Shown piece by piece: positions 11,419 through 45,226 of a stretch of DNA of 64,000 nt (position 1 is the stretch's first letter; each line of letters opens with the position of its first letter). The notes beneath the pieces are model-generated. The model ran no database searches. It was not told where the DNA came from and saw only the letters and a program-made list of their open reading frames with translations. The DNA lies in assembly GCF_053078305.1 (NCBI RefSeq), contig NZ_CP166879.1; one strand, written 5' to 3'. Both the position numbers and the translations under genes were made by a program.

Positions 11419-11518
<100 letters not shown>

Positions 11519-12646: not shown

Positions 12647-12661
12647 TAAATAAACAATAAT

Positions 12662-12704: not shown

Positions 12705-12709
12705 GCTCT

Positions 12710-13327: not shown

Positions 13328-13391
13328 TCATGTTTGAATAATTACTCTGTTTATTATCTTGACACAGCCAGGCATAAAAGAGAGTATTTCA

Positions 13392-13495
13392 ACACTGTGG
13401 GGTGCCTGCGTTGCTCCGGCAACACAAGTCAACCTGCTGGAAAGGCCGCGAACCAGACCAGCAATAAAAAACCGCCAAATTCGGCGGTTTTTTAT
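13392..13495 (+). ncRNA. candidate short plus-strand sRNA, copy 2
   Basis: homolog of 12710..12812 ending at hairpin AAAAACCGCC-AAATTC-GGCGGTTTTT. Confidence 0.3.
13466..13495. terminator. bidirectional terminator shared by sseA and ryfA-like locus
   Basis: perfect hairpin flanked by A6 and T6, 15 bp beyond sseA stop. Confidence 0.6.
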
Positions 13496-13509
13496 TGCCT
13501 GTAAAAAGC

Positions 13510-14355
13510 TTATTTCAATGGCTCAACCGGTAAATCTGCCCGCGCGCCCCATTCACTCCATGCGCCGTCGTACAGTTTCACGTTTGGCACATCCAGCGTC
13601 GCGAGTGCCAACAAAACCACGGCTGCTGTTACACCAGAGCCGCAGCTGACGATAATCGGTTTGTCATAGCTGACGCCGCGACCAAAAAATATCGCATCCA
13701 GTTCATCGGTCGTTTTTAGTTCGCCTTCGCGCACCAGTTCCGTCCACGGAACGTTCAATGCACCTGGAATATGTCCGCGACGTAAACCTGGGCGAGGTTC
13801 ATCAACTTCTGCGTTAAAACGTGCAGCCGGGCGGGCATCAATAATTTGCGCCGTATTTTCATGGCTTGCCAATAACACATCGGTTACTTTCACCACTACT
13901 TCAGGATTAAACGCGGCGTTAAACTCTCCTTCCGGCAGCTCTACTGCACCTTCTTCTAACAACAGATCATCGCGCTGCCAGCCTGCAAGTCCACCCCCCA
14001 GAATCGACACTTTCTCTACACCAAAGGTGCGCAGCATCCACCATGCTCGTGGGGCTGAGAAAAGATTACCTTCGTCATAGACAATCAGGTGCTTATCCTG
14101 GTTAACGCCTAATTCACGCATCGCCACGGCGAACGTTTCCGGGCGCGGCAGCATGTGCGGAAGCGGGGAAGTGTGATCAGAAAGCGCTTCGATATCAAAA
14201 AACACTGCGCCGGGAATATGTCCATTCAGATACTCCTGAGCAACGTTACGATCTTCCTGTCCAGGCGACGCCATGCGGGCATCGATAATCTGAATTTCCG
14301 GGTCATCAATATGTTCGGCGAGCCAGTCGGCTCCTACAAACCATGTCGTGGACAT
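13510..14355 (-). CDS. sseA: 3-mercaptopyruvate sulfurtransferase SseA
   Basis: ORF track 13510..14514; recognised start MSTTWFVGADWL gives 281 aa; rhodanese CSGSGVTA motif. Confidence 0.9.
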   Translation of the reverse strand: MSTTWFVGADWLAEHIDDPEIQIIDARMASPGQEDRNVAQEYLNGHIPGAVFFDIEALSDHTSPLPHMLPRPETFAVAMRELGVNQDKHLIVYDEGNLFSAPRAWWMLRTFGVEKVSILGGGLAGWQRDDLLLEEGAVELPEGEFNAAFNPEVVVKVTDVLLASHENTAQIIDARPAARFNAEVDEPRPGLRRGHIPGALNVPWTELVREGELKTTDELDAIFFGRGVSYDKPIIVSCGSGVTAAVVLLALATLDVPNVKLYDGAWSEWGARADLPVEPLK

Positions 14356-14561
14356 AGGCATCTCCATTTTTGCCGGGGTTAGGCTAAATTGTCGGATGTT
14401 TAGTGAAAAGCGACAAGCAAAAGAGGCTGATTTGGCTGTCTGAGCCACAATTCTCACTAAAATTCGGATTGTATGGGCGTGATACTGAATTACATAACGT
14501 AAATTCTCACGCATAATAATTATTCGACGTTGCTAACGGGCCATTGTGGCAGGGATGAAAA

Positions 14562-19523: not shown

Positions 19524-21836
19524 ATGCCTCGCTTGTTAACCAAACGCGGCTGCTGGATAACGCTGGCAGCTGCGCCATTTCTCCTTTTTCTTGCAGCGTG
19601 GGGAGCAGATAAACTCTGGCCTCTACCGCTGCATGAAGTCAATCCCGCACGAGTGGTCGTGGCGCAGGATGGTACGCCGCTCTGGCGCTTCGCCGATGCT
19701 GACGGCATCTGGCGTTATCCTGTAACAATCGAAGATGTTTCTCCACGTTACCTTGAAGCGCTGATCAATTATGAAGATCGCTGGTTCTGGAAGCATCCTG
19801 GGGTGAATCCATTCTCGGTGGCGCGCGCAGCATGGCAAGATTTCACTTCGGGACGGGTTATTTCCGGTGGCAGCACGCTCACTATGCAGGTTGCTCGTCT
19901 GCTTGATCCTCACCCCAAAACATTTGGCGGCAAAATTCGCCAGCTCTGGCGCGCGTTGCAACTGGAGTGGCATTTGTCTAAGCGTGAAATTCTGACCTTG
20001 TATCTTAACCGCGCTCCGTTTGGCGGTACGTTGCAGGGGATCGGTGCGGCAAGTTGGGCTTATCTCGGAAAATCGCCTGCGAATTTAAGCTATTCCGAGG
20101 CGGCAATGCTGGCGGTTTTGCCGCAAGCGCCCAGCCGTCTTCGCCCGGATCGTTGGCCGGAGCGTGCCGAAGCCGCGCGTAATAAAGTGCTCGAACGGAT
20201 GGCCGTGCAAGGTGTGTGGTCCCGTGAGCAGGTAAAAGAGTCAAGGGAAGAACCCATCTGGCTGGCACCCCGACAAATGCCGCAACTGGCACCGCTGTTT
20301 TCGCGCATGATGCTCGGTAAAAGTAAAAGCGACAAAATCGTTACTACGCTGGATGCCGGGCTTCAGCGACGTCTGGAAGAACTGGCGCAAAACTGGAAAG
20401 GACGATTGCCGCCGCGCAGCTCACTGGCGATGATCGTGGTTGATCATACCGATATGCGTGTTCGCGGCTGGGTGGGATCGGTAGATCTCAACGATGATTC
20501 ACGCTTTGGTCATGTTGATATGGTCAATGCGATCCGATCGCCAGGATCGGTGCTCAAACCGTTTGTTTATGGTCTGGCGCTGGATGAAGGCTTGATCCAC
20601 CCGGCATCACTGCTGCAAGACGTCCCCCGGCGCACCGGTGATTATCGACCAGGTAACTTTGATAGCGGTTTTCATGGCCCGATCAGCATGAGCGAGGCGC
20701 TGGTGCGCTCGCTGAATTTACCTGCTGTGCAGGTACTGGAAGCCTATGGACCGAAACGGTTTGCGGCAAAGTTACGCAATGTTGGATTGCCGTTATATTT
20801 GCCCAACGGTGCGGCGCCGAATCTTTCGCTCATTCTCGGCGGCGCTGGTGCAAAACTGGAAGATATGGCGGCAGCGTATACCGCGTTTGCTCGCCACGGC
20901 AAGGCAGGCAAATTGCGCTTACAGCCTGACGATCCGCTGCTTGAACGGCCTTTAATGTCGTCGGGGGCTGCGTGGATCATTCGCCGGATTATGGCTGATG
21001 AAGCGCAACCCTTGCCGGATGGTGCCTTGCCGCGCGTCGCCCCACTGGCATGGAAAACGGGCACCAGCTATGGCTATCGTGACGCCTGGGCGATTGGGGT
21101 TAACGCTCGCTATGTCATTGGGATCTGGACTGGCAGACCGGACGGCACGCCCGTTGTTGGTCAGTTTGGTTTTGCCAGCGCCGTACCATTGTTGAATCAG
21201 GTCAATAATATCTTACTGTCGCGCAGTGCTAATCTGCCGGAAGACCCGCGCCCGAACTCAGTCACTCGTGGCGTTATCTGCTGGCCGGGCGGACAGTCTT
21301 TGCCGGAAGGTGACGGTAACTGTCGCCGCCGCCTGGCAACCTGGCTGCTGGACGGGAGTCAGCCGCCAACTCTATTACTGCCGGAGCAGGAAGGCATTAA
21401 TGGCATTCGTTTCCCCATCTGGCTGGATGAAAATGGCAAACGTGTTGCCGCTGATTGCCCTCAGGCGCGACAAGAAATGATAAATGTCTGGCCGCTACCG
21501 CTGGAACCCTGGTTGCCCGCATCAGAACGCCGCGCTGTGCGCTTACCACCGGCCTCGACAATTTGCCCGCCATACGGTCACGATGCCCAGCTCCCGCTGC
21601 AGCTGACAGGCGTTCGCGATGGCGAGATTATTAAACGTTTACCGGGCGCAGCGGAAGCGACTTTGCCGTTGCAATCAAGTGGAGGGGCAGGTGAACGCTG
21701 GTGGTTTCTGAATGGCGAACCGTTAACTGAACGCGGGCGCAACGTGACCCTGCATTTGACGGATAAAGGTGATTATCAATTGCTGGTGATGGATGACGTA
21801 GGGCAAATCGCGTCAGTACATTTTTCATTTCAGTGA
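19524..21836 (+). CDS. pbpC: penicillin-binding protein 1C (PbpC)
   Basis: 770-aa ORF; glycosyltransferase and transpeptidase (SVLKP) motifs; start abuts yfhM stop. Confidence 0.9.
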   Translation: MPRLLTKRGCWITLAAAPFLLFLAAWGADKLWPLPLHEVNPARVVVAQDGTPLWRFADADGIWRYPVTIEDVSPRYLEALINYEDRWFWKHPGVNPFSVARAAWQDFTSGRVISGGSTLTMQVARLLDPHPKTFGGKIRQLWRALQLEWHLSKREILTLYLNRAPFGGTLQGIGAASWAYLGKSPANLSYSEAAMLAVLPQAPSRLRPDRWPERAEAARNKVLERMAVQGVWSREQVKESREEPIWLAPRQMPQLAPLFSRMMLGKSKSDKIVTTLDAGLQRRLEELAQNWKGRLPPRSSLAMIVVDHTDMRVRGWVGSVDLNDDSRFGHVDMVNAIRSPGSVLKPFVYGLALDEGLIHPASLLQDVPRRTGDYRPGNFDSGFHGPISMSEALVRSLNLPAVQVLEAYGPKRFAAKLRNVGLPLYLPNGAAPNLSLILGGAGAKLEDMAAAYTAFARHGKAGKLRLQPDDPLLERPLMSSGAAWIIRRIMADEAQPLPDGALPRVAPLAWKTGTSYGYRDAWAIGVNARYVIGIWTGRPDGTPVVGQFGFASAVPLLNQVNNILLSRSANLPEDPRPNSVTRGVICWPGGQSLPEGDGNCRRRLATWLLDGSQPPTLLLPEQEGINGIRFPIWLDENGKRVAADCPQARQEMINVWPLPLEPWLPASERRAVRLPPASTICPPYGHDAQLPLQLTGVRDGEIIKRLPGAAEATLPLQSSGGAGERWWFLNGEPLTERGRNVTLHLTDKGDYQLLVMDDVGQIASVHFSFQ

Positions 21837-21930
21837 AATATACAAAATATTTATTAATCTAATTATGGTATTTATATTTGGAATGCATTAATAATTTAAT
21901 AATCTCACGTTTTTTTAAACGACTAATTAT

Positions 21931-21944
21931 TTGATTGTTATCAG
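21931..21944 (+). promoter_or_regulatory. FNR-like binding site upstream of DMSO-reductase-family operon
   Basis: TTGATTGTTATCAG matches TTGAT-N4-ATCAA at 9/10; 56 bp upstream of ATG in an AT-rich region. Confidence 0.35.
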
Positions 21945-21999
21945 CATTGTTCTCGAATAAATACGTGAATATTTATTTTTTCATTTTCGGGAACGCAAG

Positions 22000-24381
22000 A
22001 TGGATACGCCAGACGAAAAGGAACGCATTACATTTCCGCAAGTATCACGACGTAGTTTTTTACAAGCGACTTCCGCGCTTATCACTTTGCCTTTTATTTC
22101 TTATACCGTAAAGGCGCAATCCCCAGATGCGTCGCCAGAAGTTACAGCTCCAGTAGCTGATAAAGTCGTGCCCACCTGTAGCACATTTGACTGCGGTGGT
22201 AAGTGCGATATTCGGGCGCATATGCGCGACGGTGTGGTGACGCAAATTACCACGCTTCCCGATAACGAACTGGATCCACAAATGCCGATTATGCGCGCCT
22301 GTGTTCGTGGTTGCGGCTATCGTAAATTTGTTTATCATCCAGACCGCCTCAAATATCCGATGAAACGGGTCGGTAAACGGGGCGAGGGGAAATTTGAGCG
22401 TATTTCATGGGATGAGGCGACGACCTTAATTGCCGATAACCTGAAAAGGATCACGCAACAATATGGCCCGGCTTCACGTTATGTCCATGTCGGGACGGCT
22501 GTTTCTGGTGGAACATTTTCTGGTGATGCGATGGCGCGTCGGCTGTTAAATTTAACCGGTGGTTATCTTGAATATTATCACTCAGTTAGTCTGGGTAATA
22601 CTGCGGCGGCAACGCCTTACACGTATGGCGTGGCGGCCAGCGGTAACTCGATGGATACTCTTCTGGATACCAAACTGGTGATCCTCTGGGGGCATAACCC
22701 AACGGAAACCATCTTCGGTCACACCAATTACTTTTTTCAAAAAATGAAGCAAAACGGTACGCGTTTTATCGTGGTAGATCCGCGTTATTCCGACACTGTA
22801 TCTTCGCTTGCCGATCAGTGGATCCCGCTGCTGCCGACCACGGACAATGCGTTGATGGACGCGATGATGTACGTCATTATCAGCGAAAATCTCCACAATA
22901 AGACATTTATCGACACATATACTCTCGGTTTTGATGAAAACTCTATGCCAGAAGGCGTACCAGCCAACGAATCGTTGGTTGCCTACCTTTTTGGCGCAAA
23001 AGATGGGATACACAAAACGCCGGAATGGGCAGAAAAAATTACCCACGTTCCAGCACAATCCATTCGTCAACTGGCACGCGATTACGCCACTACAAAACCC
23101 GCAGCGTTGATTCAGGGATGGGGGCCACAGCGACATATTTGCGGCGAACGCACCGCCCGAGGTTCAACTTTACTGGCCTCGATTACCGGTAACGTCGGCA
23201 TCAAAGGTGGCTGGGCGGCAGGTTACGGCGGTAGTTCTAATCGTAAATTCTGCGTTGGACCAGATATGCCAGAAAATCCGGTACAAGCGAAAATCTCGAT
23301 TATGAACTGGATGCAGGCGGCGGATGATGCTTCTAAAGTTACGCCGCAAGATGGGCTTAAAGGTGTCGATAAACTCGACAGTAATATCCGCCTGCTGTTC
23401 TCACTGGCAGGTAATTATCTGGCGAACCAGAACCCGGACGTCCACCAGGCCGCGAAGCTCCTTGAAGACGAATCTAAAATAGAATTCATCGTACTCAGCG
23501 ATCTGTTCATGACTCCGAGCGCGAAATATGCCGATGTGTTGCTGCCGGAAACCAGCTTTATGGAACGCTGGAATATCGGCGAAACATGGGGAACTGCGAG
23601 CTATCTTATTCTGTCAGAAAAACTGATTGAGCCGGATTTTGAACGTCGCACCGATTATGACTGGTTGCGTGACGTGGCGAAAAAACTGGGTGTCGAAGCC
23701 GAGTTCAGTCAAGGACGTGATGAGAAGCAATGGGTAGAGCATATCTGGGAGCAAACTCGTCTGGCGATGCCGGATGAAAATTTGCCGGACTTCGCGACCC
23801 TGCAAAAAACACGTCGACATCTTTTTAAAAGTGCGCCGCACATCGCTTTCGAAGCAAATATTCGCGATCCGCAGAATAATCCTTTCCCGACGCCTTCCGG
23901 CAAAATTGAGATCTTCTCTAAGCGTCTTTTTGATATGCAAGATCCAGAAATTCCCGCGCTTTCGCACTATGTCCCTGCATTTGAAGGGCCAGAAGATAAA
24001 CTGACGGCGAAATACCCGTTGCAGCTCATCACCTGGAAAGGGAAAAACCGTGCTAATTCCACCCAGTATGCTAACCCGTGGCTGCAAGAAGTTCAGACGC
24101 AAAAACTCTGGCTGAATCCGCAAGATGCAAAACAGCGCGGGATTAGCGAAGGAGATAGCGTAAAAATTTATAACGATCGTGGTGTGAGCATTATCCCGGT
24201 GGAAATAACCCCCCGTATCATCCCTGGCGTAGTTGCTATGCAGGCGGGGGCATGGTGGCAACCGGATGCACAAGGTATCGATCGCGGAGGCTGTGCCAAT
24301 GTACTGAGTTCGACCCGCATTACGGCGCTGGCGAAAGGGAATTCGCATCAAACAATGCTGGTGGAGGTTGAGAAAGCATGA
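22000..24381 (+). CDS. molybdopterin (DMSO reductase family) oxidoreductase catalytic subunit with Tat signal
   Basis: 793 aa; SRRSFLQATSAL twin-arginine motif; N-terminal CxxCxxxC Fe-S motif (CSTFDCGGKC). Confidence 0.85.
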   Translation: MDTPDEKERITFPQVSRRSFLQATSALITLPFISYTVKAQSPDASPEVTAPVADKVVPTCSTFDCGGKCDIRAHMRDGVVTQITTLPDNELDPQMPIMRACVRGCGYRKFVYHPDRLKYPMKRVGKRGEGKFERISWDEATTLIADNLKRITQQYGPASRYVHVGTAVSGGTFSGDAMARRLLNLTGGYLEYYHSVSLGNTAAATPYTYGVAASGNSMDTLLDTKLVILWGHNPTETIFGHTNYFFQKMKQNGTRFIVVDPRYSDTVSSLADQWIPLLPTTDNALMDAMMYVIISENLHNKTFIDTYTLGFDENSMPEGVPANESLVAYLFGAKDGIHKTPEWAEKITHVPAQSIRQLARDYATTKPAALIQGWGPQRHICGERTARGSTLLASITGNVGIKGGWAAGYGGSSNRKFCVGPDMPENPVQAKISIMNWMQAADDASKVTPQDGLKGVDKLDSNIRLLFSLAGNYLANQNPDVHQAAKLLEDESKIEFIVLSDLFMTPSAKYADVLLPETSFMERWNIGETWGTASYLILSEKLIEPDFERRTDYDWLRDVAKKLGVEAEFSQGRDEKQWVEHIWEQTRLAMPDENLPDFATLQKTRRHLFKSAPHIAFEANIRDPQNNPFPTPSGKIEIFSKRLFDMQDPEIPALSHYVPAFEGPEDKLTAKYPLQLITWKGKNRANSTQYANPWLQEVQTQKLWLNPQDAKQRGISEGDSVKIYNDRGVSIIPVEITPRIIPGVVAMQAGAWWQPDAQGIDRGGCANVLSSTRITALAKGNSHQTMLVEVEKA

Positions 24382-25007
24382 GCCAATTTAAAGAATTTGC
24401 ATCTGTCAGCGACAAACAATTAGGGTTCTTTATTGACTCTTCGCGTTGTTCTGGCTGTAAAGCGTGTCAGGTGGCCTGTAAAGACAAAAACAACCTTGAG
24501 GTTGGGCGACGTTTTCGCCGCGTGTATGAAGTGAACGGCGGTGGCTTCATCGCCACTGGAGAGGGCGGTGTGAGTCATAATGTCTTTGCTTATACCCTTT
24601 CTGTTTCCTGTAACCATTGCGCGGATCCGATCTGTACCAAAAATTGCCCGACGATGGCGATGCATAAGCGTCCCGGAGACGGCATTGTGCGCGTGAATAC
24701 TGATAAGTGCGTCGGTTGCGGTTACTGCGCCTGGTCCTGTCCTTACGGCGCACCACAAATGAATGAGCAGACCGGGCAGATGTCGAAATGCGATTTCTGT
24801 ATTGATCTGCAAGCTAAAGGAGAACAACCCATTTGCGTGGCAACGTGCCCGTTGGGGGCGATTAAGTTCGGCCCTATTGATGAGTTGCGTGAAAAGTATG
24901 GCGATGTCAGTGATGTGAAAGGTTTACCTGATTCGTCGATTACGCAGCCAAATCTGGTGATTAAACCGCATCAGGGCGCGGAAAAGGAGGCGTCACATCA
25001 TGCATGA
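24378..25007 (+). CDS. 4Fe-4S ferredoxin-type electron transfer subunit (DmsB-like)
   Basis: 209 aa with multiple CxxCxxCxxxCP motifs; ATGA overlap with upstream gene. Confidence 0.85.
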   Translation: MSQFKEFASVSDKQLGFFIDSSRCSGCKACQVACKDKNNLEVGRRFRRVYEVNGGGFIATGEGGVSHNVFAYTLSVSCNHCADPICTKNCPTMAMHKRPGDGIVRVNTDKCVGCGYCAWSCPYGAPQMNEQTGQMSKCDFCIDLQAKGEQPICVATCPLGAIKFGPIDELREKYGDVSDVKGLPDSSITQPNLVIKPHQGAEKEASHHA

Positions 25008-25821
25008 ATTACCGTTAATGGCTTTTACGCTGTTGTTACAGGCATCGGTCGGTATGACGTTGTGGCTGGCGTTTCTTCATCGTCATATTTTAATCACCTC
25101 CAGTGCCCGCCCGGTTATGCGACCGCCATTACTGTTGGCTTTTTTGGCCGGGGCAGTAGGGTTACTGATTTCTACCTTACACCTGGGTTATCCACTTAAT
25201 GCGATGCATGCGCTAAGTCACTTTTCCAGTTCATGGCTGAGTCGGGAAATTATCTTTGGTGCGCTGTATCTGGCGCTATTGGGTTTAACCACATTACTGG
25301 TCATGTTACACAAAGGCGGCTGGCAACTCCTTCTTATGCTAGCGGCAGTGGTCGGAATTGTTGATGTTTTCTGCATGGCGCAAGTTTACATCCATACGTC
25401 GATTATCACCTGGCAGCATTACAACACGCTGATTATGTTCTTAGGTACAGTGGGAATTCTCGGTTCAGCGCTGGTAGCAGTGTTTCGTATTAGCGGAATT
25501 TTGCCGCAGATTGATGCCCTGCGTAATGGATGCGTGTTGGTGATCGCTCTCCTGGTTCTGTTGCGCTTGTTGGTTCAGCCGTTGTGGGTAGGGGATTTAA
25601 CGGCGAATGCGATGCAGATAGCTACACTGCCACATGCGCCATTAGCGATGCTGGGACAGTTAAAACCCATACTGACACTAAGCTGGGGAATTTCCGTCAT
25701 TGGGATGATGTTCTTTGCTGTCGGTGGTTGTAAAAAGAATATCCCTGCGGCGTTATTCGGTAGCGTACTGCTAGTGGGCAGTGAAGTTATGCTGCGTTTT
25801 GTCTTTTTTAGTATCGGCTAA
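25000..25821 (+). CDS. integral membrane anchor subunit (DmsC-like)
   Basis: 273 aa, highly hydrophobic multi-TM; 8-bp overlap with upstream gene. Confidence 0.75.
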   Translation: MHELPLMAFTLLLQASVGMTLWLAFLHRHILITSSARPVMRPPLLLAFLAGAVGLLISTLHLGYPLNAMHALSHFSSSWLSREIIFGALYLALLGLTTLLVMLHKGGWQLLLMLAAVVGIVDVFCMAQVYIHTSIITWQHYNTLIMFLGTVGILGSALVAVFRISGILPQIDALRNGCVLVIALLVLLRLLVQPLWVGDLTANAMQIATLPHAPLAMLGQLKPILTLSWGISVIGMMFFAVGGCKKNIPAALFGSVLLVGSEVMLRFVFFSIG

Positions 25822-26675
25822 TGTTAAGTCATAACATAACGATTGGCGCGGAATGCGCGCGCCAACGCTTTCGTTTTGCAACATGTCATGCCTGTGTCGA
25901 GGCTTGCCCGGCACAGGCGCTAACGCTGACAGAAGAGGGCATAGCGGTCGACGCGGAACAATGTATTGAGTGTGCGGTTTGCCAGTTTATTTGTCCGCAA
26001 GAGGCTATTCGTGGCGTTAATTCCCCTTTACGTTATTTTCGCAATCACACCCTGGTCGCACCTTTCACCACTATTGCGCCGACGCTGGAAGAACTTTTGC
26101 TATGGCATAAAGAGCAGGGGATCACAGCGATCGCGATTGATCTGAGTCAGGCGAAGGCATGGGAGCGCGCATTATTGCTGTTAAACGAACGCTTACGGCA
26201 ATATGGCGAGGAAGGCTGGTCTGTGGTATCTCCACATACCAGTGAGGTGAATGTTTCCCGGCGTCGTTTGTTCCATGTGCAGCGTGCGGATGTTCAGATG
26301 ACACAAATACAACCAGGATTACGTCGGTTACATTATTTATGGCCCCAGATTAGTGATGCTCGCCCGATGATGGATCCTCAAAAGTGTCAGCTTTGCGGTG
26401 CATGCTGGCGGGCCTGCGAGCAACAGGTCTTTTCGCTTAACGAAGGCCATTTACAAATCAATGATGCCTTGTGTAACGGATGCCAAAATTGTATTGCTGT
26501 TTGTTTTCATCAGGCAATGACCGTTGAATTGACGATTCTACCGGCAAAAATTGTGAATCTTCATGCTAATCGCAAAGTCTGTAAAACCTGTCAAAAATCC
26601 TTTCTTACTTTTCAGCAAAATGCGCAAAATTGTCTTTATTGCCAACGTCATCGCTATGGGATGAGAGCACCATAA
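25821..26675 (+). CDS. cysteine-rich ferredoxin-like protein, fourth gene of the operon
   Basis: 284 aa; motifs CHACVEACP, CIECAVCQFICP, CQLCGACWRAC, CNGCQNCIAVC; TAATG stop/start overlap. Confidence 0.7.
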   Translation: MLSHNITIGAECARQRFRFATCHACVEACPAQALTLTEEGIAVDAEQCIECAVCQFICPQEAIRGVNSPLRYFRNHTLVAPFTTIAPTLEELLLWHKEQGITAIAIDLSQAKAWERALLLLNERLRQYGEEGWSVVSPHTSEVNVSRRRLFHVQRADVQMTQIQPGLRRLHYLWPQISDARPMMDPQKCQLCGACWRACEQQVFSLNEGHLQINDALCNGCQNCIAVCFHQAMTVELTILPAKIVNLHANRKVCKTCQKSFLTFQQNAQNCLYCQRHRYGMRAP

Positions 26676-26815
26676 AAGTCGAGTTGTTGCTAAAACTCAT
26701 TTTATTTTAAAAAAATGTTACCTTCATCAATAGTCAACGGCCCTGTTGCTCATTATAATCCGCGCCATCTCGTACGCTGGTACAGACAACAACAGAACAA
26801 TTTACAGAGGTAAAA

Positions 26816-39143: not shown

Positions 39144-40721
39144 ATGACGGAAAACATTCATAAGCATCGCATCCTCATTCTGGACTTCGGTTCTCAGTAC
39201 ACTCAACTGGTTGCGCGCCGCGTGCGTGAGCTGGGTGTTTACTGCGAACTGTGGGCGTGGGATGTGACAGAAGCACAAATTCGTGACTTCAATCCAAGCG
39301 GCATTATTCTTTCCGGCGGCCCGGAAAGTACTACTGAAGAAAACAGTCCGCGTGCGCCGCAGTATGTCTTTGAAGCAGGCGTACCGGTATTCGGCGTTTG
39401 CTATGGCATGCAGACCATGGCAATGCAGTTGGGCGGTCACGTTGAAGCCTCTAACGAACGTGAATTTGGCTACGCGCAGGTTGAAGTCGTAAACGACAGC
39501 GCACTGGTTCGCGGTATCGAAGATGCGCTGACCGCAGACGGTAAACCGCTGCTCGATGTCTGGATGAGCCACGGCGATAAAGTTACCGCTATCCCGTCCG
39601 ACTTCGTCACCGTAGCCAGCACCGAAAGCTGCCCGTTTGCCATTATGGCTAACGAAGAAAAACGCTTCTATGGCGTACAGTTCCACCCGGAAGTGACTCA
39701 CACCCGCCAGGGTATGCGCATGCTGGAGCGTTTTGTGCGTGATATCTGCCAGTGTGAAGCCCTGTGGACGCCAGCGAAAATTATCGACGATGCTGTAGCT
39801 CGCATCCGCGAGCAGGTAGGCGACGATAAAGTCATCCTCGGCCTCTCTGGTGGTGTGGATTCCTCCGTAACCGCAATGCTGCTGCACCGCGCTATCGGTA
39901 AAAACCTGACTTGCGTATTCGTCGACAACGGCCTGCTGCGTCTCAACGAAGCAGAGCAGGTTCTGGATATGTTTGGCGATCACTTTGGTCTTAACATTGT
40001 TCACGTACCGGCAGAAGATCGCTTCCTGTCAGCGCTGGCTGGCGAAAACGATCCGGAAGCAAAACGTAAAATCATCGGTCGCGTTTTCGTTGAAGTATTC
40101 GATGAAGAAGCGCTGAAACTGGAAGACGTGAAGTGGCTGGCACAGGGCACCATCTACCCTGACGTTATCGAATCTGCGGCGTCTGCAACCGGTAAAGCAC
40201 ACGTCATCAAATCTCACCACAACGTGGGCGGCCTGCCGAAAGAGATGAAGATGGGCCTGGTTGAACCGCTGAAAGAGCTGTTCAAAGACGAAGTGCGTAA
40301 GATTGGTCTGGAGCTGGGTCTACCGTACGACATGCTGTACCGTCACCCGTTCCCGGGACCAGGCCTTGGCGTTCGTGTTCTGGGTGAAGTGAAGAAAGAG
40401 TACTGTGACCTGCTGCGCCGTGCTGACGCCATCTTCATTGAAGAACTGCGTAAAGCGGATCTGTACGACAAAGTCAGCCAGGCGTTCACCGTCTTCCTGC
40501 CAGTACGTTCCGTTGGCGTAATGGGCGATGGTCGTAAGTATGACTGGGTTGTCTCTCTGCGTGCTGTCGAAACCATCGACTTTATGACCGCACACTGGGC
40601 GCATCTGCCGTACGATTTCCTCGGTCGCGTTTCCAACCGCATTATCAATGAAGTGAACGGTATTTCCCGCGTGGTGTATGACATCAGCGGCAAGCCGCCA
40701 GCTACCATTGAGTGGGAGTGA
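39144..40721 (+). CDS. guaA: GMP synthase (glutamine-hydrolysing) GuaA
   Basis: 525-aa ORF, GATase and ATP-PPase (SGGVDSSV) motifs. Confidence 0.95.
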
Positions 40722-40760
40722 GGCTATTATTTAAACTATTGTTTTATTTGATTTAGTGAG

Positions 40761-40800
40761 TGCCATTGATGATATTGACTGCATTATCAATGGCATTTTT
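40761..40800 (+). terminator. guaA terminator
   Basis: imperfect stem TGCCATTGATGAT / ATTATCAATGGCA followed by ATTTTT. Confidence 0.5.
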
Positions 40801-41105
40801 CATGGTATAAGGCCGACGCTGAATCGAAGATATAGCAAATACCATGTGACTGTATCAGCAAATGCCATGGTATCGACAACCGGGGGCATTGCAGCGCTGT
40901 GCTGATGCCATCGATGCCCGCTTTTAGTCAGAACACTCTCTCGACCCAAGCCTCCAGATCCTTAAATATGCGCCAGAGGAGCACCTCGTGATCGAAATTA
41001 TGAACAAGACAGCCGCCGCTCGGAATCGAAGTCTCCATATGGGTGAATAAGGTTTGCGGAAAACACGCTGAGAAAATAGAAAAGCGTCAATGAAGGGACA
41101 TAGCA

Positions 41106-42386
41106 ATGGCGATTAACGGAGTGGACGGTGTTAGCGCAGTCACCGTGGATGAACTACTCAAGCAAGGCCTTCGGATACCGAACTATCAACGCCCATACAG
41201 TTGGGAAGTATCGACCGCTCTACAACTGGTGGATGATCTCAGCGAAGCTCTTCGAGATACCGAAAGAAAAGATATTCCCTATGTTTTGGGTGCAATCATT
41301 CTTCACGATGATGGTGAGTATCTCAATGTAGTCGACGGACAGCAACGTCTGCTGACTTTGCGAATGATTCTTGCGGCCTTAGATCCGATAAATCACCAAA
41401 TTTCGGTGTCTGGTAACAGAGAAACCTCTGTCTCCCTGGTTTGGATAGAGCTTCAAAGGCGCCTGTCGCAGTTGGAAGATAAAAAAGAATTTTTGGATTT
41501 TATCTGTCACAAATGTCAGTTGGTGCGTATTGTGACGGACGATATTGATGAGGCATTCCGTGTCTTTGATTCCCAGAACTATCGCGGCAAACCGCTTGCC
41601 CCTCATGACTTGCTCAAAGCACACCACCTGCGCGAAATGCACGATGAGTCCGCTGCTATGAAAGTGGCTGTCGTTGAGGCTTGGGAAGCCGTAAATGATG
41701 AGGATCTGGACAGGCTTTTTTCTACTTTTTTATACCGGATATCCAAGTGGTCACGAGGAGAAAGCTCGCTCGAATTTGCTATTCGGGACATCGGTATGTT
41801 CAAGGGAATTTCATCACGATCCCACAGATCATTTTCGCCAAATCTGCGATATCACCTTGCAGCACAAGCCGCTATGCCACTTCTAAGTGCATGGGCGGTG
41901 TCCTCGACACATGATGCTCGAAATGCCGGGCGCAGCCGCTTTCAGCTTGATGCCCCGATAATCGCTGGGCGCTCATTTTTCGAGATGGTGGCATTCATGC
42001 TTGACGAATTGAAGATACTGGAAAAAGAGGTTATCGACAAAGGTTTCAAAAACTTTGGCCCATCTCAAAGTCGCTACCGCTACGTGTACGAATTGTTCAT
42101 TGCCGCTCTGCTTTGCTATACAAACAAGTTTGGCGATGAAGATGTGGATGAAGTGCGAAATAGGTTATTCGCATGGGCATATGCCTTGCGGGTCGAGTTA
42201 CTTCGTGTGCAATTTGTATCTGCTGACAACCGAGCTCGAGGTAAAAACGATGCAAATAAATCGCCTTTTGTTTTGCTACGCAACGCGATGACTGGAAGTG
42301 TTGTCCGCAAACTTCCAATAGCAAGTCAGCCATACAACGATAACCACGAAAAGGAACTCATTGCTTTTATCAAGGGGCTGCAATGA
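41106..42386 (+). CDS. DUF262-like (ParB/Srx-fold, GmrS-like) protein without nuclease domain; first gene of accessory two-gene cassette
   Basis: 426 aa; N-terminal IPNYQRPYSW and DGQQRL motifs at ~aa 25-80, later FDSQNYRGKPL motif; SD AAGGGA upstream; stop overlaps next start. Confidence 0.8.
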   Translation: MAINGVDGVSAVTVDELLKQGLRIPNYQRPYSWEVSTALQLVDDLSEALRDTERKDIPYVLGAIILHDDGEYLNVVDGQQRLLTLRMILAALDPINHQISVSGNRETSVSLVWIELQRRLSQLEDKKEFLDFICHKCQLVRIVTDDIDEAFRVFDSQNYRGKPLAPHDLLKAHHLREMHDESAAMKVAVVEAWEAVNDEDLDRLFSTFLYRISKWSRGESSLEFAIRDIGMFKGISSRSHRSFSPNLRYHLAAQAAMPLLSAWAVSSTHDARNAGRSRFQLDAPIIAGRSFFEMVAFMLDELKILEKEVIDKGFKNFGPSQSRYRYVYELFIAALLCYTNKFGDEDVDEVRNRLFAWAYALRVELLRVQFVSADNRARGKNDANKSPFVLLRNAMTGSVVRKLPIASQPYNDNHEKELIAFIKGLQ

Positions 42387-44335
42387 GCAAGAAGGAGTTG
42401 AAACCCGAACTGCTAACAGTAGGCAAGCTATTCACGGACAATTATCTGATTCCTATTTATCAACGGAACTATGCTTGGCGGGCCGAACAGATTGAGCAAC
42501 TTATCAGCGATATTCAAGACTCGGTTGTTGGGGGCCAGGACGACTATTTTCTTGGAAACCTTGTTGTAATCAAGCGGGGTAGAGAGGACGAGTTCGAGGT
42601 CATAGATGGACAACAACGACTTACAACCCTCTATCTGCTTCTGACCTTCCTGGAGCAAGACGGTGAGGGTGGGAAGCCGTCGATTGGCCATGCAGGCCAC
42701 TTGCAATATGAGTCGCGTGCACGGGCAACGGAAGCCCTGCGGCGAGTAGCACAGGAGGCGGCTAAGGGGCACGTCCGACCGCAGGGCTCCACGAGTAATG
42801 CAGATGCTGGCATCCATGAAGGCTACAGCATCATCAATCAGTTCTTCAAACAAAATGAAACCCTTAATTGCTCACGCGAAAAATTCTCCGATTTCTTGCT
42901 AACGAAGGTTACTGTCGTCCGTGCCTCGCTGCCACCCAATACAGATCTCAATCGCTACTTCGAGATCATGAACACTCGTGGGCAGCAACTCAAGCAGGTT
43001 GATATTGTTAAGGCTCGCCTGATGAGCAAGCTGCCCAATCAATATGAACGCGAATGCTTCGCCTGGGTTTGGGATGCCTGTGCTGAGATGGATTCTTATG
43101 TCCAGATGTCTCTGACCCGTGGTGACACCAGTTTGCGAAACAAAGTATTTGGCGATGAATGGTCCTGGCTGGAGGTGACCAGCTTCGCGTCGTTAATGGA
43201 AAGTCGTCCGCAATCCGGCATCAATTCTTCAAGGCAATCCTCCGAAGGGGTATCGTTGTCCTTGGATGAGGCGTTGTCAAAATACGCTAAAGAGATCGAG
43301 TCAAATTCCACTGAAGACGAGGGCAACGAGCGGTTTCGTTCGACTATTGAGTTTCCGGCCTTTCTGCTACACGTTCTAAGAATTATGAAAGGCGATGAGG
43401 TCGAAGACGAAGGCCAGCTTGACGACAAACGCCTCATCAAGTCATTTGACGACGCTGTAAATAATGTACCCGATGCTAAAGCCGATTGGGTGCGTAACTT
43501 TACATTCATGCTCCTCAAGTGCCGCAACCTCTTCGATGGCTTCATTTTGAAGCGTCAATTCACGGCGAACATCGGTGACGATGGCGATTGGTCTCTCCAG
43601 CGATTGAAGAAAGGCGGCGCGGACAAGAAGCCAACCCCGACGTATATCCATGTTTTCTCGGCCAGCAATGGAAACTTAGAGGAGGACGGCGGTGCTGACC
43701 CACATACCCGAGATGTATTGCTGCTTCAGTCCATGCTTCGGATAACCTACACTTCTCCGCGAACGATGCACTGGATTACCAAAGTTCTTCGCTGGCTATC
43801 CGTCAAAGCCCCTCAAGACGCGAAACATGCGGATCTTGCCGATTTGTTGAAGGGGTATGCCCGCAGCAAGGTCAAAGAGACATTCCCCTTTGAGGAAGAT
43901 CAGCAACCACAAGGGTTTGGTATCAGCCGCATCGTCTTTTCGTATCTCGACTATCTTCTGTTGAGCGATTCCTCAAAACGAGATTTCAAATTTCAGTTCA
44001 GAACTTCCATTGAGCACTTTTATCCACAGCATCCGGACAAAGAACAGTCGGGCGCGGTTGTTTCAGGTTCTAGCCTTAACCTGCTTGGCAACCTTGCGCT
44101 CGTAAGCGTCAGCGCGAACTCAAAATTCAGCAATAGCCTTCCCAGAGCGAAGGCCGAAAACTTCAAGGATACGATTGAACTTCAAAGTCCCAAGCTCAAG
44201 AGAATGGCGGAAATCACTCGAAATACAAGCTGGGACGATCAGCAGATAACAGCTCATCATGAAGAGATGGTGACATTGCTTCGTGATGATGTAAGTCTGG
44301 TGGAGGCAAGCGGAAGATCCTACCCGGGGCGTTGA
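42383..44335 (+). CDS. GmrSD/SspE-like protein: N-terminal DUF262-like domain fused to C-terminal DUF1524-like His-Me finger nuclease domain (putative modification-dependent or defence endonuclease)
   Basis: 650 aa; IPIYQRNYAW and DGQQRLTTL motifs; FEIMNTRGQQL; C-terminal SIEHFYPQHP ... GNLALVSVSANSKFSN. Confidence 0.8.
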   Translation: MSKKELKPELLTVGKLFTDNYLIPIYQRNYAWRAEQIEQLISDIQDSVVGGQDDYFLGNLVVIKRGREDEFEVIDGQQRLTTLYLLLTFLEQDGEGGKPSIGHAGHLQYESRARATEALRRVAQEAAKGHVRPQGSTSNADAGIHEGYSIINQFFKQNETLNCSREKFSDFLLTKVTVVRASLPPNTDLNRYFEIMNTRGQQLKQVDIVKARLMSKLPNQYERECFAWVWDACAEMDSYVQMSLTRGDTSLRNKVFGDEWSWLEVTSFASLMESRPQSGINSSRQSSEGVSLSLDEALSKYAKEIESNSTEDEGNERFRSTIEFPAFLLHVLRIMKGDEVEDEGQLDDKRLIKSFDDAVNNVPDAKADWVRNFTFMLLKCRNLFDGFILKRQFTANIGDDGDWSLQRLKKGGADKKPTPTYIHVFSASNGNLEEDGGADPHTRDVLLLQSMLRITYTSPRTMHWITKVLRWLSVKAPQDAKHADLADLLKGYARSKVKETFPFEEDQQPQGFGISRIVFSYLDYLLLSDSSKRDFKFQFRTSIEHFYPQHPDKEQSGAVVSGSSLNLLGNLALVSVSANSKFSNSLPRAKAENFKDTIELQSPKLKRMAEITRNTSWDDQQITAHHEEMVTLLRDDVSLVEASGRSYPGR

Positions 44336-44632
44336 CTTCTTTGAATAACCGCTTTTGGACGAATGTCCCTTGTGGAGTGCAAGTTGTCAGTTTAAAAGTG
44401 TTTTGCGTCGGGCGACACGATCAGTACAGCTCCCAGGTTTTTTTACCATGGTATTTTGTGTGGTATCGACATGCAAAGATAATGCTATTTTGTTGATTTT
44501 ATAGTGTTTTAAGGCGGCATTGATCATCGAGTGGGAATAAACCCTGTACATATTGCTGAAGTTTTCTTTTCGGATAAAACTTCAGCAGATTTTCACAGCA
44601 AACCCCTCTTATCTCTGGAGGTTTTTTTTACG

Positions 44633-44667
44633 CAAATTAAAAACCCATAACTCTCACGAATCATGGG
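44633..44667 (-). terminator. yfgI terminator
   Basis: minus-strand hairpin CCCATGATTCGTGAGAGTTATGGG followed by T-rich run. Confidence 0.4.
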
Positions 44668-44686
44668 CTTTGTGGTAGAAAGACGA

Positions 44687-45226
44687 TTAATTAAACCAAC
44701 CGTCCGATTTATTCTCTTCTGCTTTACCCACGCTTTTCATCAAATCGCGACCGCCTTCTGTCACATTTCTGTTAGCGTCAGCTTCAGATTGCACGACATC
44801 AGTTTGCGCGGCTTTGTGCTTCAGCTCCTGGTCGATAAACTCGTTCTCTCGCTTAACGCGGGCTTCTTCTTTCGCCAGCGCCAGCTTTTGTTTCTGAATC
44901 TCTAAGCTGCGCAGCTCATCTTCATAACTTTGATCGCGTTTTTTATCCGCGGTGGCTTCGGCGTCCAGTTTATCCTGACGAGCTTTCTTATCCGCTGCTG
45001 CTGCCGCCGCTCTTTTGTTAGCGGCGGCCTGGGCATTTGCGCGACGTTGCTTCTCTTGCTGGATTTCCCTGTTGCGCTCCGCGACCCATTCGTCATGCTG
45101 CCTTTGCTCTTCATTTTTACCTTGCTGTTCCGCTTCTGCGACAGCAGAGAGTTGATCCTGCAATGATGAGGCGATAGCCGGATAGCTTAAGGAGACCAAG
45201 ATGGCGCAAAGAAAAACTTTCTTCAT
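44687..45226 (-). CDS. yfgI: secreted coiled-coil protein YfgI
   Basis: 179-aa ORF with signal peptide and charged coiled-coil; synteny. Confidence 0.8.
   Translation of the reverse strand: MKKVFLCAILVSLSYPAIASSLQDQLSAVAEAEQQGKNEEQRQHDEWVAERNREIQQEKQRRANAQAAANKRAAAAAADKKARQDKLDAEATADKKRDQSYEDELRSLEIQKQKLALAKEEARVKRENEFIDQELKHKAAQTDVVQSEADANRNVTEGGRDLMKSVGKAEENKSDGWFN

What the first reader, a model, noticed from the sequence alone, without database searches (positions are those of the whole stretch)
40722..44686. ~3.6 kb insertion between convergent guaA and yfgI with no mobility genes; shared flanking motif
In the K-12 arrangement I recall, yfgI lies directly downstream of guaA with a few hundred bp between them; here the spacing is 3965 bp. 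The guaA terminator hairpin (40761-40800) is intact on the left. The motif ACCATG...TGGTATCGACA occurs both at 40841-40878 and at 44445-44471, bracketing the two-gene cassette as a possible imperfect direct repeat or insertion scar. No integrase, transposase, IS inverted repeats or tRNA are present, as is typical of small defence islets gained by homologous recombination at variable hotspots.
Basis: partly seen in the sequence, partly recalled or inferred. Interest (0 to 1): 0.55.

Follow-up and report, generated by a model that had tools for sequence, protein, structure and literature searches.

The report
Integrase-less defence mini-island at guaA
The extra 3.8 kb between guaA and yfgI is a small mobile unit with no recombinase gene: recombination-site ends of the known GIsul2/PIME island family enclose a known two-gene anti-phage restriction system, so it is a new member of known kinds rather than a new kind of thing.

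Summary
The insertion is real. K-12 has 92 bp between guaA and yfgI, and this window has 3,965 bp. The cassette occurs in 80 of 5,426 complete E. coli genomes.

It belongs to ATGGTAT repeats found at both ends of every GIsul2/PIME-type island at this site. This is the published crossover site of GIsul2-family integrases at the 3' end of guaA.

Between the cores lie a ~215-bp left arm, a two-gene cargo and a ~190-bp right arm, with no integrase.

The same core-to-core unit (94-98% nt identity) also occurs:
- at the guaA end of Shewanella, Kluyvera and Providencia;
- next to integrase-bearing PIME islands in tandem arrays;
- on 468 plasmids, 464 of them from Klebsiella.

The cargo is a TgvAB-family doublet: a GmrS-like protein plus a GmrSD nuclease (type IV restriction). 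It is already catalogued as CLS_016/017.

Best reading: a unit whose ends are integrase attachment (att) sites and which borrows a neighbour's integrase. Movement in trans is inferred, not shown.

Verdict: new member of known kinds, moderate interest.

The parts
40710..40721 (+). Left core (attL crossover region) GAGTGGGAGTGA. It forms the last codons and stop of guaA (Glu-Trp-Glu-stop is preserved; K-12 has GAGTGGGAATGA).
   Evidence: One of only two matches to GAGTGGGARTRA in the window, against 0.02 expected. It contains the published GIsul2 core GAGTGGGA at the guaA 3' end (PMC9376610). It is the left end of homology in all other hosts.
40722..40936 (+). Left arm (attP P-arm-like), non-coding. 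It holds a hairpin followed by a U-run at 40758-40798 that would terminate guaA transcription. It also holds ATGGYAT arm-type repeats: 40790-40796 (ATGGCAT), 40802-40808 (ATGGTAT), 40839-40845 (ATACCAT, inverted) and 40867-40873 (ATGGTAT).
   Evidence: Present in every copy of the element, 94-99% identical across genera. Absent from more distant cassette homologues, whose homology starts at 40937/40956. The layout (direct pair with the same 5-nt gap, then an inverted copy, then a direct copy) is the same in the left arms of integrase-bearing islands L003 and L026. Hairpin.
40937..41105 (+). Conserved upstream region of the cassette, presumed to hold its promoter and RBS. It travels with the genes even outside the att-bounded element.
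   Evidence: Homology to cassette copies in unrelated contexts (L015, L017; 87-90% nt) begins at 40937-40956. No strong sigma-70 consensus was found on the + strand.
41106..42386 (+). Gene A, 426 aa. It has a GmrSD_N/DUF262 domain (YQRPY, DGQQR at residue 77, FDSQN) plus DUF7834 and no nuclease domain. It is the TgvA-like / 'GmrS1'-like partner and belongs to cluster CLS_017.
   Evidence: Pfam PF03235 E = 1.3e-27 and PF25202 E = 5.6e-55. BLASTP to V. cholerae TgvA: 25% over 377 aa, E = 1e-27. WP_001625659, the D8 annotation of this gene, is listed in CLS_017.
42383..44335 (+). Gene B, 650 aa. It has GmrSD_N/DUF262 (DGQQR at 75) plus GmrSD_C/DUF1524, a His-Me finger nuclease (EH at 544-545, then N...N). 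It is the TgvB-like GmrSD effector and belongs to cluster CLS_016. Its start overlaps the stop of gene A (ATGA).
   Evidence: Pfam PF03235 E = 2.2e-33 and PF07510 E = 1.1e-13. Motifs. BLASTP to TgvB: 29% over 420 aa, E = 8e-37. WP_001625657 is listed in CLS_016. The A-B pair with overlapping stop/start is kept at 68% identity in Pseudoduganella.
44336..44528 (+). Right arm (attP P'-arm-like), non-coding. It holds a tandem arm-type pair: ATGGTAT at 44448-44454 and a degenerate GTGGTAT at 44460-44466, which are 81 and 69 nt upstream of the core. Its last ~18 nt imperfectly repeat the guaA 3' end.
   Evidence: ATGGTAT sits at -80/-81 (and usually also at -68/-69) from the core in 12 of the 13 GIsul2/PIME-type right ends scored, representing nine distinct arm sequences. 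These include the GIsul2/CR2-sul2 attR, whose core lies 296 bp upstream of sul2. The Kluyvera copy has a mutated site, and the prophage end lacks the motif. The arm is absent from distant cassette homologues, whose homology ends at 44324-44354.
44529..44540 (+). Right core (attR crossover region) GAGTGGGAATAA.
   Evidence: The second of the two matches in the window. Homology with all other copies ends at 44535-44540.
44541..44683 (.). Rare, divergent version of the guaA-yfgI spacer. It is not part of the element. It replaces the 89-bp K-12-type spacer and contains a hairpin (44554-44587) and a weak terminator-like stem with a T-run (44605-44629).
   Evidence: Found at 100% identity in only 11 of 5,426 genomes, all of which carry the element, with no diverged copies elsewhere. 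TUM13936 carries the same element allele with the K-12-type spacer, and the break falls in the core. Folds.

Best explanation
Window 40710-44540 is a discrete 3.83-kb integrative element that has no recombinase gene. It sits in the attachment site (attB) that GIsul2/PIME-family tyrosine integrases use at the last codons of guaA.

Its anatomy is that of an attP site split open by cargo:
- a core repeat GAGTGGGA(+4) at each end;
- a ~215-bp left arm and a ~190-bp right arm, carrying ATGGTAT repeats in the same number, orientation and spacing as in integrase-bearing islands of this family (inferred arm-type integrase-binding sites);
- between the arms, only a two-gene operon.

Shown here: the anatomy, the exact boundaries, repeated insertion into different guaA alleles and genera, tandem arrays with integrase-bearing PIMEs, and carriage on conjugative plasmids.

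Inferred: it is integrated and excised by an integrase, plus an AlpA-type excisionase, supplied by a co-resident GIsul2/PIME island. This could happen in trans on the free unit. Alternatively, a tandem composite is mobilised and the partner later excises alone. The precedent is GIsul2 Int, which has been shown experimentally to move the integrase-less CR2-sul2 unit.

The cargo is a TgvAB-family type IV (modification-dependent) restriction system. A (DUF262 + DUF7834) and B (DUF262 + His-Me nuclease) would act together. Their DGQQR NTPase domains sense modified (glucosyl-hmC) phage DNA and license the nuclease of B. This function is inferred from homologues; it was not tested here.

This particular copy probably reached its present host with a divergent right flank by homologous recombination.
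For: Boundaries and core:
- The core repeat occurs only at the two boundaries and equals the published GIsul2 core at the guaA 3' end (PMC9376610).
- E. coli 18KM2445 and TUM13936 have the unit inserted cleanly, with the K-12 spacer intact after the right core.

Tandem arrays:
- 2017.20.01CC, HKUOPY1 and EcPF16 have three cores: guaA | integrase-bearing island | core | this unit | core.

Other hosts:
- Shewanella indica, Kluyvera sichuanensis and Providencia rettgeri carry the unit (94-98% nt) directly at their own guaA, which is more diverged. Each has a species-specific sequence after the right core.
- In Buttiauxella it follows another island's right end.
- 468 plasmids, 464 from Klebsiella and mostly conjugative, hold exactly core-to-core.

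Arms:
- The arms are delimited by comparison with cassette copies that lack them.
- The right-arm ATGGTAT pair sits at -80/-68 from the core in nine distinct arm sequences, including the GIsul2 attR.
- The left-arm layout is shared with islands L003 and L026.
- The motif is enriched in the window.

Integrases:
- The integrases of the two neighbouring island types are 86% identical to each other.
- No homologue was found in this window or in the Buttiauxella, Shewanella, Kluyvera and plasmid loci.

Counts and precedent:
- 52 genomes have the unit abutting guaA, and 28 more have it in second position.
- Precedent for movement in trans: PMC9376610.

Cargo:
- Pfam domains and catalytic motifs.
- A matches TgvA and B matches TgvB beyond the shared domain, while the cross-comparisons match only ~70 aa.
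- Near-identical proteins are listed as TgvAB hits in Table S5 of PMC11411939 and as doublet CLS_016/017 in PMC12373910.
- The gene pair is conserved in distant taxa.
Against: - No excision product or circular form was observed. Movement in trans is inference from anatomy, distribution and one published precedent.
- Some arm repeats are degenerate: GTGGTAT in this window's right arm, ATGGTTT in the 96% allele's left arm, ATGATAT in Kluyvera. Individual copies may therefore be crippled.
- No helper integrase lies within this 64-kb window, so this copy may currently be immobile.
- The arms are slightly less conserved than the genes (right arm 91-96%).
- On plasmids the right junction is a truncated core (GAGTGGG|T), and no empty target site could be reconstructed.
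- The rare right flank of this copy points to homologous recombination for the last step.
- The anti-phage activity of this exact cassette could not be read from the papers held: the result for CLS_016/017 is in a figure, and references 42 and 43 of the PIME preprint could not be resolved.
Confidence: 0.75

Rival explanations
1. It is a dead remnant. A PIME/GIsul2-type island lost its integrase and backbone by deletion, leaving arms and cargo. The remnant is now immobile and is inherited vertically or moved only by homologous recombination of its flanks.
For: There is no integrase inside the unit or nearby. Some arm repeats are degenerate. This copy is linked to a divergent right flank and a diverged yfgI 3' end, as expected for a recombined tract. 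Another islet at this site (UPEC132) retains only the right arm motif and looks decayed.
Against: - The same unit with the same two boundaries lies at the guaA end of Shewanella, Kluyvera and Providencia. Their right flanks are non-homologous and their guaA genes more diverged, which homologous recombination cannot produce.
- The same 99.5% allele sits in two different attB alleles, with the break in the core.
- It is also on 468 plasmids from core to core.
- No integrase-bearing island with these arms was found in 5,426 E. coli genomes: all 80 chromosomal copies of the left arm are accounted for by the 52 guaA-adjacent and 28 second-position copies of the unit.
Confidence: 0.12
2. It is a defence islet with no mobility genes that entered a variable hotspot by homologous recombination between conserved flanking genes, and the shared motif is a scar or chance repeat.
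For: The site is highly variable. The cassette also exists without these arms in other genomic contexts. This copy's right flank suggests a recombined tract.
Against: The motif is statistically non-random and positionally conserved in unrelated islands. The boundaries are integrase cores. There are insertions in other genera and on plasmids that lack shared flanks.
Confidence: 0.05
3. It is not a separate unit but the distal accessory region of a PIME. Solo copies arise when the PIME backbone excises through a secondary internal core, and the unit never integrates on its own.
For: The PIME preprint treats the whole guaA-yfgI interval of EcPF16 as one PIME with immune cargo. Tandem arrangements are common, with 28 copies. 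Providencia has integrase fragments beside the unit.
Against: - The unit has a complete left arm with the same repeat layout as bona fide island left arms, not just a stray core.
- It is paired with at least three different partner islands (L009, L010, L060) and with other partners on plasmids and in Buttiauxella.
- In Providencia the integrase remnant lies to the right of the unit, not the left.

This rival differs from the best explanation only in whether free-circle integration occurs.
Confidence: 0.08

Closest known systems
CR2-sul2 unit of GIsul2 (Zhang et al. 2022, PMC9376610)
   Same: Both are integrase-less segments bounded by GAGTGGGA att cores at the guaA 3' end. The left core region reads GAGTGGGAGTGA in both. 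The right end has the same ATGGTAT pair at -80/-68 (L009). CR2-sul2 was shown to be excised and integrated by the GIsul2 integrase supplied from the neighbouring island.
   Different: The cargo here is phage defence rather than ISCR2 plus sul2, and there is no rcr2 transposase. This unit has a full left arm with arm-type repeats. It is found alone at guaA in several genera and on Klebsiella IncF plasmids. Its mobility is untested.
PIMEs (Pseudomonadota integrative mobilizable elements, e.g. PIME1_EcPF16; bioRxiv 10.64898/2026.01.12.698999) and GIsul2
   Same: Same attB next to guaA, same core, and the same kind of arm repeats. Both carry immune systems. The unit lies in tandem with PIME1-type islands in EcPF16 and 2017.20.01CC.
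   Different: PIMEs are defined by int, alpA, a replicase, trbJ and trbL. This unit has none of them.
CIMEs (cis-mobilizable elements) of Streptococcus thermophilus ICESt1/ICESt3 (from my own knowledge; not checked in the library)
   Same: The concept is the same: att-flanked elements without recombination or transfer genes, found accreted in tandem with an integrase-bearing element that can mobilise them.
   Different: The phylum, integrase family and attB are all different. CIMEs are viewed as decayed ICEs. Here the unit is reduced to arms plus one operon and is spread across genera and plasmids.
TgvAB of Vibrio cholerae VPI-2 (PMC11411939; PMC11014532)
   Same: Both are two adjacent genes: A with DUF262 only, B with DUF262 + DUF1524. 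DGQQR is present in both proteins and a His-Me finger in B. A matches TgvA and B matches TgvB over ~380-420 aa. Near-identical proteins are listed as TgvAB-model hits. TgvAB needs both genes and restricts phages with glucosyl-hmC DNA.
   Different: Only 25-29% amino-acid identity. The operon is not embedded in a type I R-M locus. Its target modification is untested.
GmrSD-ECOR17 doublet (GmrS1 + GmrSD2; CLS_003/004) and the catalogue of GmrSD groups in PMC12373910
   Same: Same doublet architecture. This cassette is one of the three two-gene groups listed there (CLS_016/017). In ECOR17 both genes and the EH nuclease motif are required, and the system blocks T2, T6 and T4 lacking ip3.
   Different: It is a different sequence cluster: the EH motif is at 544-545 here against 582-583 in GmrSD2. 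Whether the synthesised CLS_016/017 representative was active could not be read from the text held.

Membership tests
GIsul2 / PIME family of integrative mobilizable elements at guaA | Integration at the 3' end of guaA at the core 5'-GAGTGGGA-3', with the core repeated at both ends | tested here: met
   Cores lie at 40710-40721 and 44529-44540, the only two matches in the window. Published core: PMC9376610.
GIsul2 / PIME family of integrative mobilizable elements at guaA | Own tyrosine integrase next to attL, plus an alpA regulator/excisionase | tested here: not met
   Only two long ORFs lie inside, both DUF262 proteins. tblastn with two family integrases finds nothing in the 64-kb window.
GIsul2 / PIME family of integrative mobilizable elements at guaA | Replication and transfer module (repA/repC, trbJ, trbL, +/- traJ/traI), as used to define PIMEs | tested here: not met
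   No such ORFs lie between the cores. Compare islands L010 and L060, which have them.
GIsul2 / PIME family of integrative mobilizable elements at guaA | Arm regions with the family's repeated motif at a fixed distance from the core (a feature derived here, not a published criterion) | tested here: met
   ATGGTAT lies at -81 from the right core (the partner at -69 is degenerate). The left-arm layout of pair, inverted copy and direct copy matches L003 and L026.
Integrase-less att-bounded units mobilised by a neighbour's integrase (CR2-sul2 unit; CIME concept) | Flanked by att sites of an integrase family while encoding no recombinase | tested here: met
Integrase-less att-bounded units mobilised by a neighbour's integrase (CR2-sul2 unit; CIME concept) | Found accreted in tandem with integrase-bearing elements that share the att site | tested here: met
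   L009, L010 and L060 each have three cores. 28 chromosomal copies lie away from the guaA end.
Integrase-less att-bounded units mobilised by a neighbour's integrase (CR2-sul2 unit; CIME concept) | Integrase-dependent excision and integration of the unit demonstrated | not testable with these tools
   This needs PCR or trap-plasmid assays. The indirect support is independent insertions in at least 4 genera and in two E. coli attB alleles, all with identical boundaries.
TgvAB-type two-protein GmrSD-like type IV restriction systems | Adjacent gene pair: partner with DUF262 only, effector with DUF262 + DUF1524 | tested here: met
   Pfam results. The two genes overlap by 4 nt. The pair is conserved in distant taxa.
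TgvAB-type two-protein GmrSD-like type IV restriction systems | DGQQR NTPase motif in both proteins, and the His-Me finger H...N...N motif in the effector | tested here: met
   DGQQR is at A77 and B75. The effector reads EHFYPQH...GNLALVSVSANSKFSN from B544.
TgvAB-type two-protein GmrSD-like type IV restriction systems | Sequence homology to TgvA and TgvB beyond the shared DUF262 domain | tested here: met
   A vs TgvA: 25% over 377 aa, E = 1e-27. B vs TgvB: 29% over 420 aa, E = 8e-37. Cross-pairs match only ~70 aa. Only the first 400 aa of TgvA and TgvB were available. Near-identical proteins appear in the authors' TgvAB hit table.
TgvAB-type two-protein GmrSD-like type IV restriction systems | Both genes required, and restriction of phages with glucosyl-hmC DNA | not testable with these tools
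   Shown for TgvAB and GmrSD-ECOR17. Possibly tested for this cluster in PMC12373910 and in the PIME preprint, but the results could not be retrieved.
Single-chain GmrSD / BrxU / SspE / HEC-06 | One polypeptide carries the whole system, with full-length similarity to those families | tested here: not met
   PADLOC hits to HEC-06, Orf5 and SspE models match mainly the N-terminal DUF262 domain (best stretches ~70-210 aa) of models 530-790 positions long. PDB hits (SspE, DUF262 proteins) are likewise confined to the N-terminal domain. NCBIfam gave no hit.

The most novel reading that the evidence does not exclude
The 3.8-kb unit is a functional 'miniature integrative element': essentially a split attP carrying one defence operon. 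It parasitises the integrase and excisionase of PIME/GIsul2 islands, and through them or through IncF/IncP plasmids the conjugation machinery, to spread a type IV restriction system across Gammaproteobacteria. If so, some 'mobility-gene-free' defence islets at hotspots are really integrase hitch-hikers. Published PIME boundaries, such as PIME1_EcPF16, would then merge two independently mobile modules.
Probability: 0.5. Interest if true: 0.5.

Novelty: new member of a known kind. Interest (0 to 1): 0.35.

Why it matters
It offers a concrete, testable answer to how a defence operon with no mobility genes comes to lie in a hotspot. The operon is wrapped in the attachment-site arms of a widespread integrase family and can probably borrow that family's recombinase.

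That would explain three things seen here:
- its presence at guaA in several genera;
- its pairing with different PIME islands;
- its abundance on Klebsiella conjugative plasmids (468 records).

It also suggests a simple sequence signature, ATGGTAT-N5-ATGGTAT about 55 nt upstream of GAGTGGGA, for finding other such hitch-hikers and for setting the true boundaries of PIME/GIsul2 islands.

The cargo and the site are both already known, so the advance is incremental.

Tried and rejected
- Origin of the divergent right flank (44541-44683). Megablast and sensitive blastn against 5,426 E. coli genomes found only the 11 carriers. Two exact-pattern scans of the metagenome contigs found nothing. The donor remains unknown.
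- An 'empty' plasmid target site. A synthetic left+right junction matched no plasmid contiguously. Plasmids without the element share only the right backbone, from the base after GAGTGGG, with an unrelated left side. No target duplication could be defined.
- Exact-sequence contig look-up of protein A returned only a 4-kb contig.
- NCBIfam gave no family for either protein. Rfam found no RNA. There is no tRNA.
- PADLOC hits (HEC-06, Orf5, SspE) were rejected as family assignments because they match mainly the DUF262 domain. HEC-06 is a single-protein system.
- Identity with GmrSD-ECOR17 was rejected because the EH motif positions differ.
- The outcome of the phage test for CLS_016/017 (in a figure) and references 42/43 of the PIME preprint could not be retrieved.
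- IS- or transposon-mediated insertion was considered and rejected. There are no terminal inverted repeats beyond the palindromic part of the arm motif (I1) and no transposase.

Full report
**Observation**

guaA (39144-40721, +) and yfgI (44687-45226, -) converge and are 3,965 bp apart. In K-12 DH1 they are 92 bp apart. BLAST against K-12 shows homology ending exactly at the guaA stop codon (40721) and resuming at 44684.

Among 5,426 complete E. coli genomes, 4,463 have the uninterrupted K-12-type junction. Only 80 hold the two-gene cassette, in three allele classes (about 99.3%, 97.9% and 96.0% identity).

- TGGTATCGACA occurs 3 times in 64 kb against 0.03 expected.
- CATGGTAT occurs 6 times against 1.38 expected, four of them at the two ends of the insert.

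There is no tRNA, no Rfam family and no integrase homologue in the window.

**What bounds the insert**

Other E. coli carry integrase-bearing islands at the same place (STEC309, KFu015, HKUOPY1, 2017.20.01CC, EcPF16). Each of them ends on the right with a repeat of the last bases of guaA, GAGTGGGAATGA, followed by the intact K-12 spacer.

The window has the same thing. GAGTGGGAGTGA forms the end of guaA (40710-40721) and GAGTGGGAATAA lies at 44529-44540. These are the only two matches to GAGTGGGARTRA in 64 kb, against 0.02 expected. They sit within an imperfect 26-nt direct repeat spaced 3,819 bp apart (D4).

GAGTGGGA is the published crossover core of the GIsul2 integrase at the 3' end of guaA (PMC9376610). 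The exchange keeps the GuaA C-terminus: GAG TGG GAG TGA here against GAG TGG GAA TGA in K-12.

**The unit is discrete**

Homology between the window and every other copy runs from core to core.

- E. coli 18KM2445 and TUM13936 have the unit between the guaA core and an intact K-12 spacer. This is a clean insertion.
- 2017.20.01CC, HKUOPY1 and EcPF16 have three cores: guaA | int-alpA-repA-traJ-trbJ-trbL island with other cargo | core | this unit | core | yfgI.
- 52 genomes have the unit abutting guaA. 28 further chromosomal copies of its left arm lie away from the guaA end.
- In PLSDB, 468 plasmids carry the segment from window 40707/40710 to 44535. Of these, 464 are from Klebsiella and most are conjugative, with IncFIB replicons in the three loci examined. 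On these plasmids the left core is preceded by another island's right-end remnant, and the right core is truncated (GAGTGGG|TAACAT). This resembles the secondary-site insertions described for GIsul2 on plasmids.
- In the species-representative genome set, the unit is present at 94-98% nt identity in Buttiauxella agrestis, Shewanella indica, Kluyvera sichuanensis and Providencia rettgeri.
- In Shewanella, Kluyvera and Providencia it lies directly at the host's own guaA, and the combined guaA-plus-unit alignments are only 89-94% identical. The right core GAGTGGGAATAA is followed by unrelated, species-specific sequence.
- In Buttiauxella it follows another island's right end.

Homologous recombination cannot place one segment between non-homologous flanks with identical end points. 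Site-specific recombination can.

**Arms and cargo**

More distant copies of the cassette (87-90% nt, in unrelated contexts) share only 40937/40956-44324/44354 with the window and have no cores. That leaves a left arm of about 215 bp (40722-40936) and a right arm of about 190 bp (44336-44528) that belong to the mobile unit rather than to the operon.

Right arm. It has ATGGTAT at -81 from the core and a degenerate copy (GTGGTAT) at -69. The same pair, at -80/-81 and -68/-69, is present in the right ends of nine otherwise unrelated arm sequences:
- two different PIME1 islands;
- the traI/trbL-bearing island of HKUOPY1 and its KFu015 relative;
- the STEC309 island;
- the UPEC132 islet;
- a plasmid remnant;
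- the sul2-proximal end of HKUOPY1.

The core of that last end lies 296 bp upstream of sul2, which identifies it as the GIsul2/CR2-sul2 attR studied experimentally. A prophage that uses the same core lacks the pair.

Left arm. It has a direct pair (ATGGCAT-N5-ATGGTAT, 40790-40808), an inverted copy (40839-40845) and a further direct copy (40867-40873). Integrase-bearing islands L003 and L026 show the same order downstream of their left cores. I read these as arm-type integrase-binding sites. That is an inference; the GIsul2 paper does not describe arm sites.

The hairpin at 40758-40798 is part of the left arm and would supply guaA with a terminator after insertion. The native terminator is a different sequence that stays to the right of the unit.

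**No recombinase**

The integrases of the two neighbouring island types are 86% identical to each other. tblastn with both finds nothing in the window, in the Buttiauxella, Shewanella and Kluyvera loci, or in the plasmid loci. In Providencia it finds only pseudogene fragments to the right of the unit.

**How it probably moves**

Zhang et al. showed in recA- E. coli that the GIsul2 integrase excises and integrates GIsul2 itself. It also moves the integrase-less CR2-sul2 unit, which is bounded by an internal core (GAGTGGGAGTGA...) and attR.

The islands found next to this unit match the recently described PIMEs. These integrate beside guaA, are induced by IncP helper plasmids and carry immune systems.

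The simplest account is that this unit is recombined by such an integrase. That could happen in trans on the free unit, or by accretion with a PIME followed by separate excision of the partner. No tool here can show this.

Points against present-day activity of this copy:
- one degenerate right-arm repeat;
- no helper integrase within 64 kb;
- arms slightly less conserved than the genes.

**This copy's last step**

The 143 bp between the right core and yfgI (44541-44683) differ from the K-12 spacer. They occur in only 11 genomes, all carriers, and have no diverged relatives in other E. coli. The adjacent 3' end of yfgI is unusually diverged, at 92.7% against a background of about 99%.

TUM13936 carries the same 99.5% allele with the K-12-type flank, and the break falls in the core. 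So one allele sits in two attB alleles. The variant one ends in ...GAATAA, as guaA does in Kluyvera, Shewanella and Providencia.

A likely history is integration in an unsampled relative, followed by import into E. coli by homologous recombination. The donor was not found.

**Cargo**

- Gene A (426 aa) has GmrSD_N/DUF262 plus DUF7834.
- Gene B (650 aa) has GmrSD_N plus GmrSD_C/DUF1524.
- Both have DGQQR, and B has the EH...N...N His-Me finger.
- The genes overlap by ATGA. The pair is kept together at 68% identity in a betaproteobacterium (Pseudoduganella danionis) and in metagenome contigs.

This is the architecture of V. cholerae TgvAB, in which both genes and both DGQQR motifs are needed and which blocks T-even phages. 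Direct comparison gives:
- A vs TgvA: 25% over 377 aa (E = 1e-27).
- B vs TgvB: 29% over 420 aa (E = 8e-37).
- The cross-pairs match only about 70 aa.

Near-identical proteins from Shimwellia, Pectobacterium and Klebsiella plasmids are in the authors' table of TgvAB-model hits.

The RefSeq proteins of this locus (WP_001625659 and WP_001625657; plasmid allele WP_004182042 and WP_000037308) are listed as clusters CLS_017 and CLS_016 in PMC12373910. This is one of three 'GmrS + GmrSD doublet' groups in Enterobacteria. The characterised doublet, GmrSD-ECOR17, is a different cluster.

PADLOC, PDB and NCBIfam give only domain-level hits or none.

The PIME preprint reports that a 'previously characterized' system from the accessory regions of PIME1_EcRHB23-C07 or PIME1_EcPF16 protects against T2, T4 and T6. 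EcPF16 carries the 96% allele of this cassette. I could not confirm that this cassette is the system meant.

**Verdict**

It is wrong on mechanism and on the meaning of the motif.

The site, the integrase family, the idea of integrase-less att-bounded units and the cargo family are all published. In the papers I read, I found no explicit recognition of this 3.8-kb unit as a separate att-bounded module, of the conserved arm-repeat layout, or of its spread over several genera and hundreds of Klebsiella plasmids.

I rate it a new member of known kinds, of moderate interest.

Noticed in passing
window 21829-26683: About 4.85 kb is absent from K-12 DH1 between pbpC and ndk. In E. coli D8 the same place holds DMSO/selenate-family reductase A, B and anchor subunits plus a 4Fe-4S protein.
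   Followed up: no
window 44684-45000 (3' end of yfgI): This short tract is only 92.7% identical to K-12, against a background of about 99%. It adjoins the rare 143-bp spacer. The yfgI 3' end is also only ~86% identical between this window and two other E. coli strains, STEC309 and CS5L.
   Followed up: partly
L025:16581-19909 (E. coli UPEC132): A different ~3.3-kb integrase-less islet (response regulator, IS remnant, AAA ATPase) sits at the same site. It is bounded by GAGTGGGAGTAG and GAGTGGGAATGA. The ATGGTAT arm motif is present only on its right side.
   Followed up: partly
L024:~1-19943 (E. coli MS10858): A podovirus-like prophage occupies the same guaA core. Its right junction is aataatt|GAGTGGGAATGA, and it lacks the ATGGTAT pair, so a different integrase type shares this attB.
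   Followed up: partly
L012:7445-12834 (plasmid pLGP4, MF116002.1): An IncF plasmid carries a complete E. coli-type guaA (98.7% to K-12) fused to the element, next to IS genes. This suggests the plasmid captured a chromosomal guaA-element junction.
   Followed up: partly
L033:11597-12207 (Providencia rettgeri RB151): Fragments of a GIsul2/PIME-type integrase (63-75% aa identity in the two best pieces) lie immediately to the right of the element's right core. They look like a decayed neighbouring island.
   Followed up: no
L060:4601-23435 (E. coli EcPF16): The interval published as PIME1_EcPF16 contains an internal core with its own arm pair at 19607. It therefore reads as a PIME plus the separate DUF262 unit, with an IS66 inserted in the spacer to the right.
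   Followed up: yes
window 12616-13493: This stretch is only 87-91% identical to K-12, with rearranged, overlapping alignments. It is possibly repeat-rich intergenic DNA.
   Followed up: no
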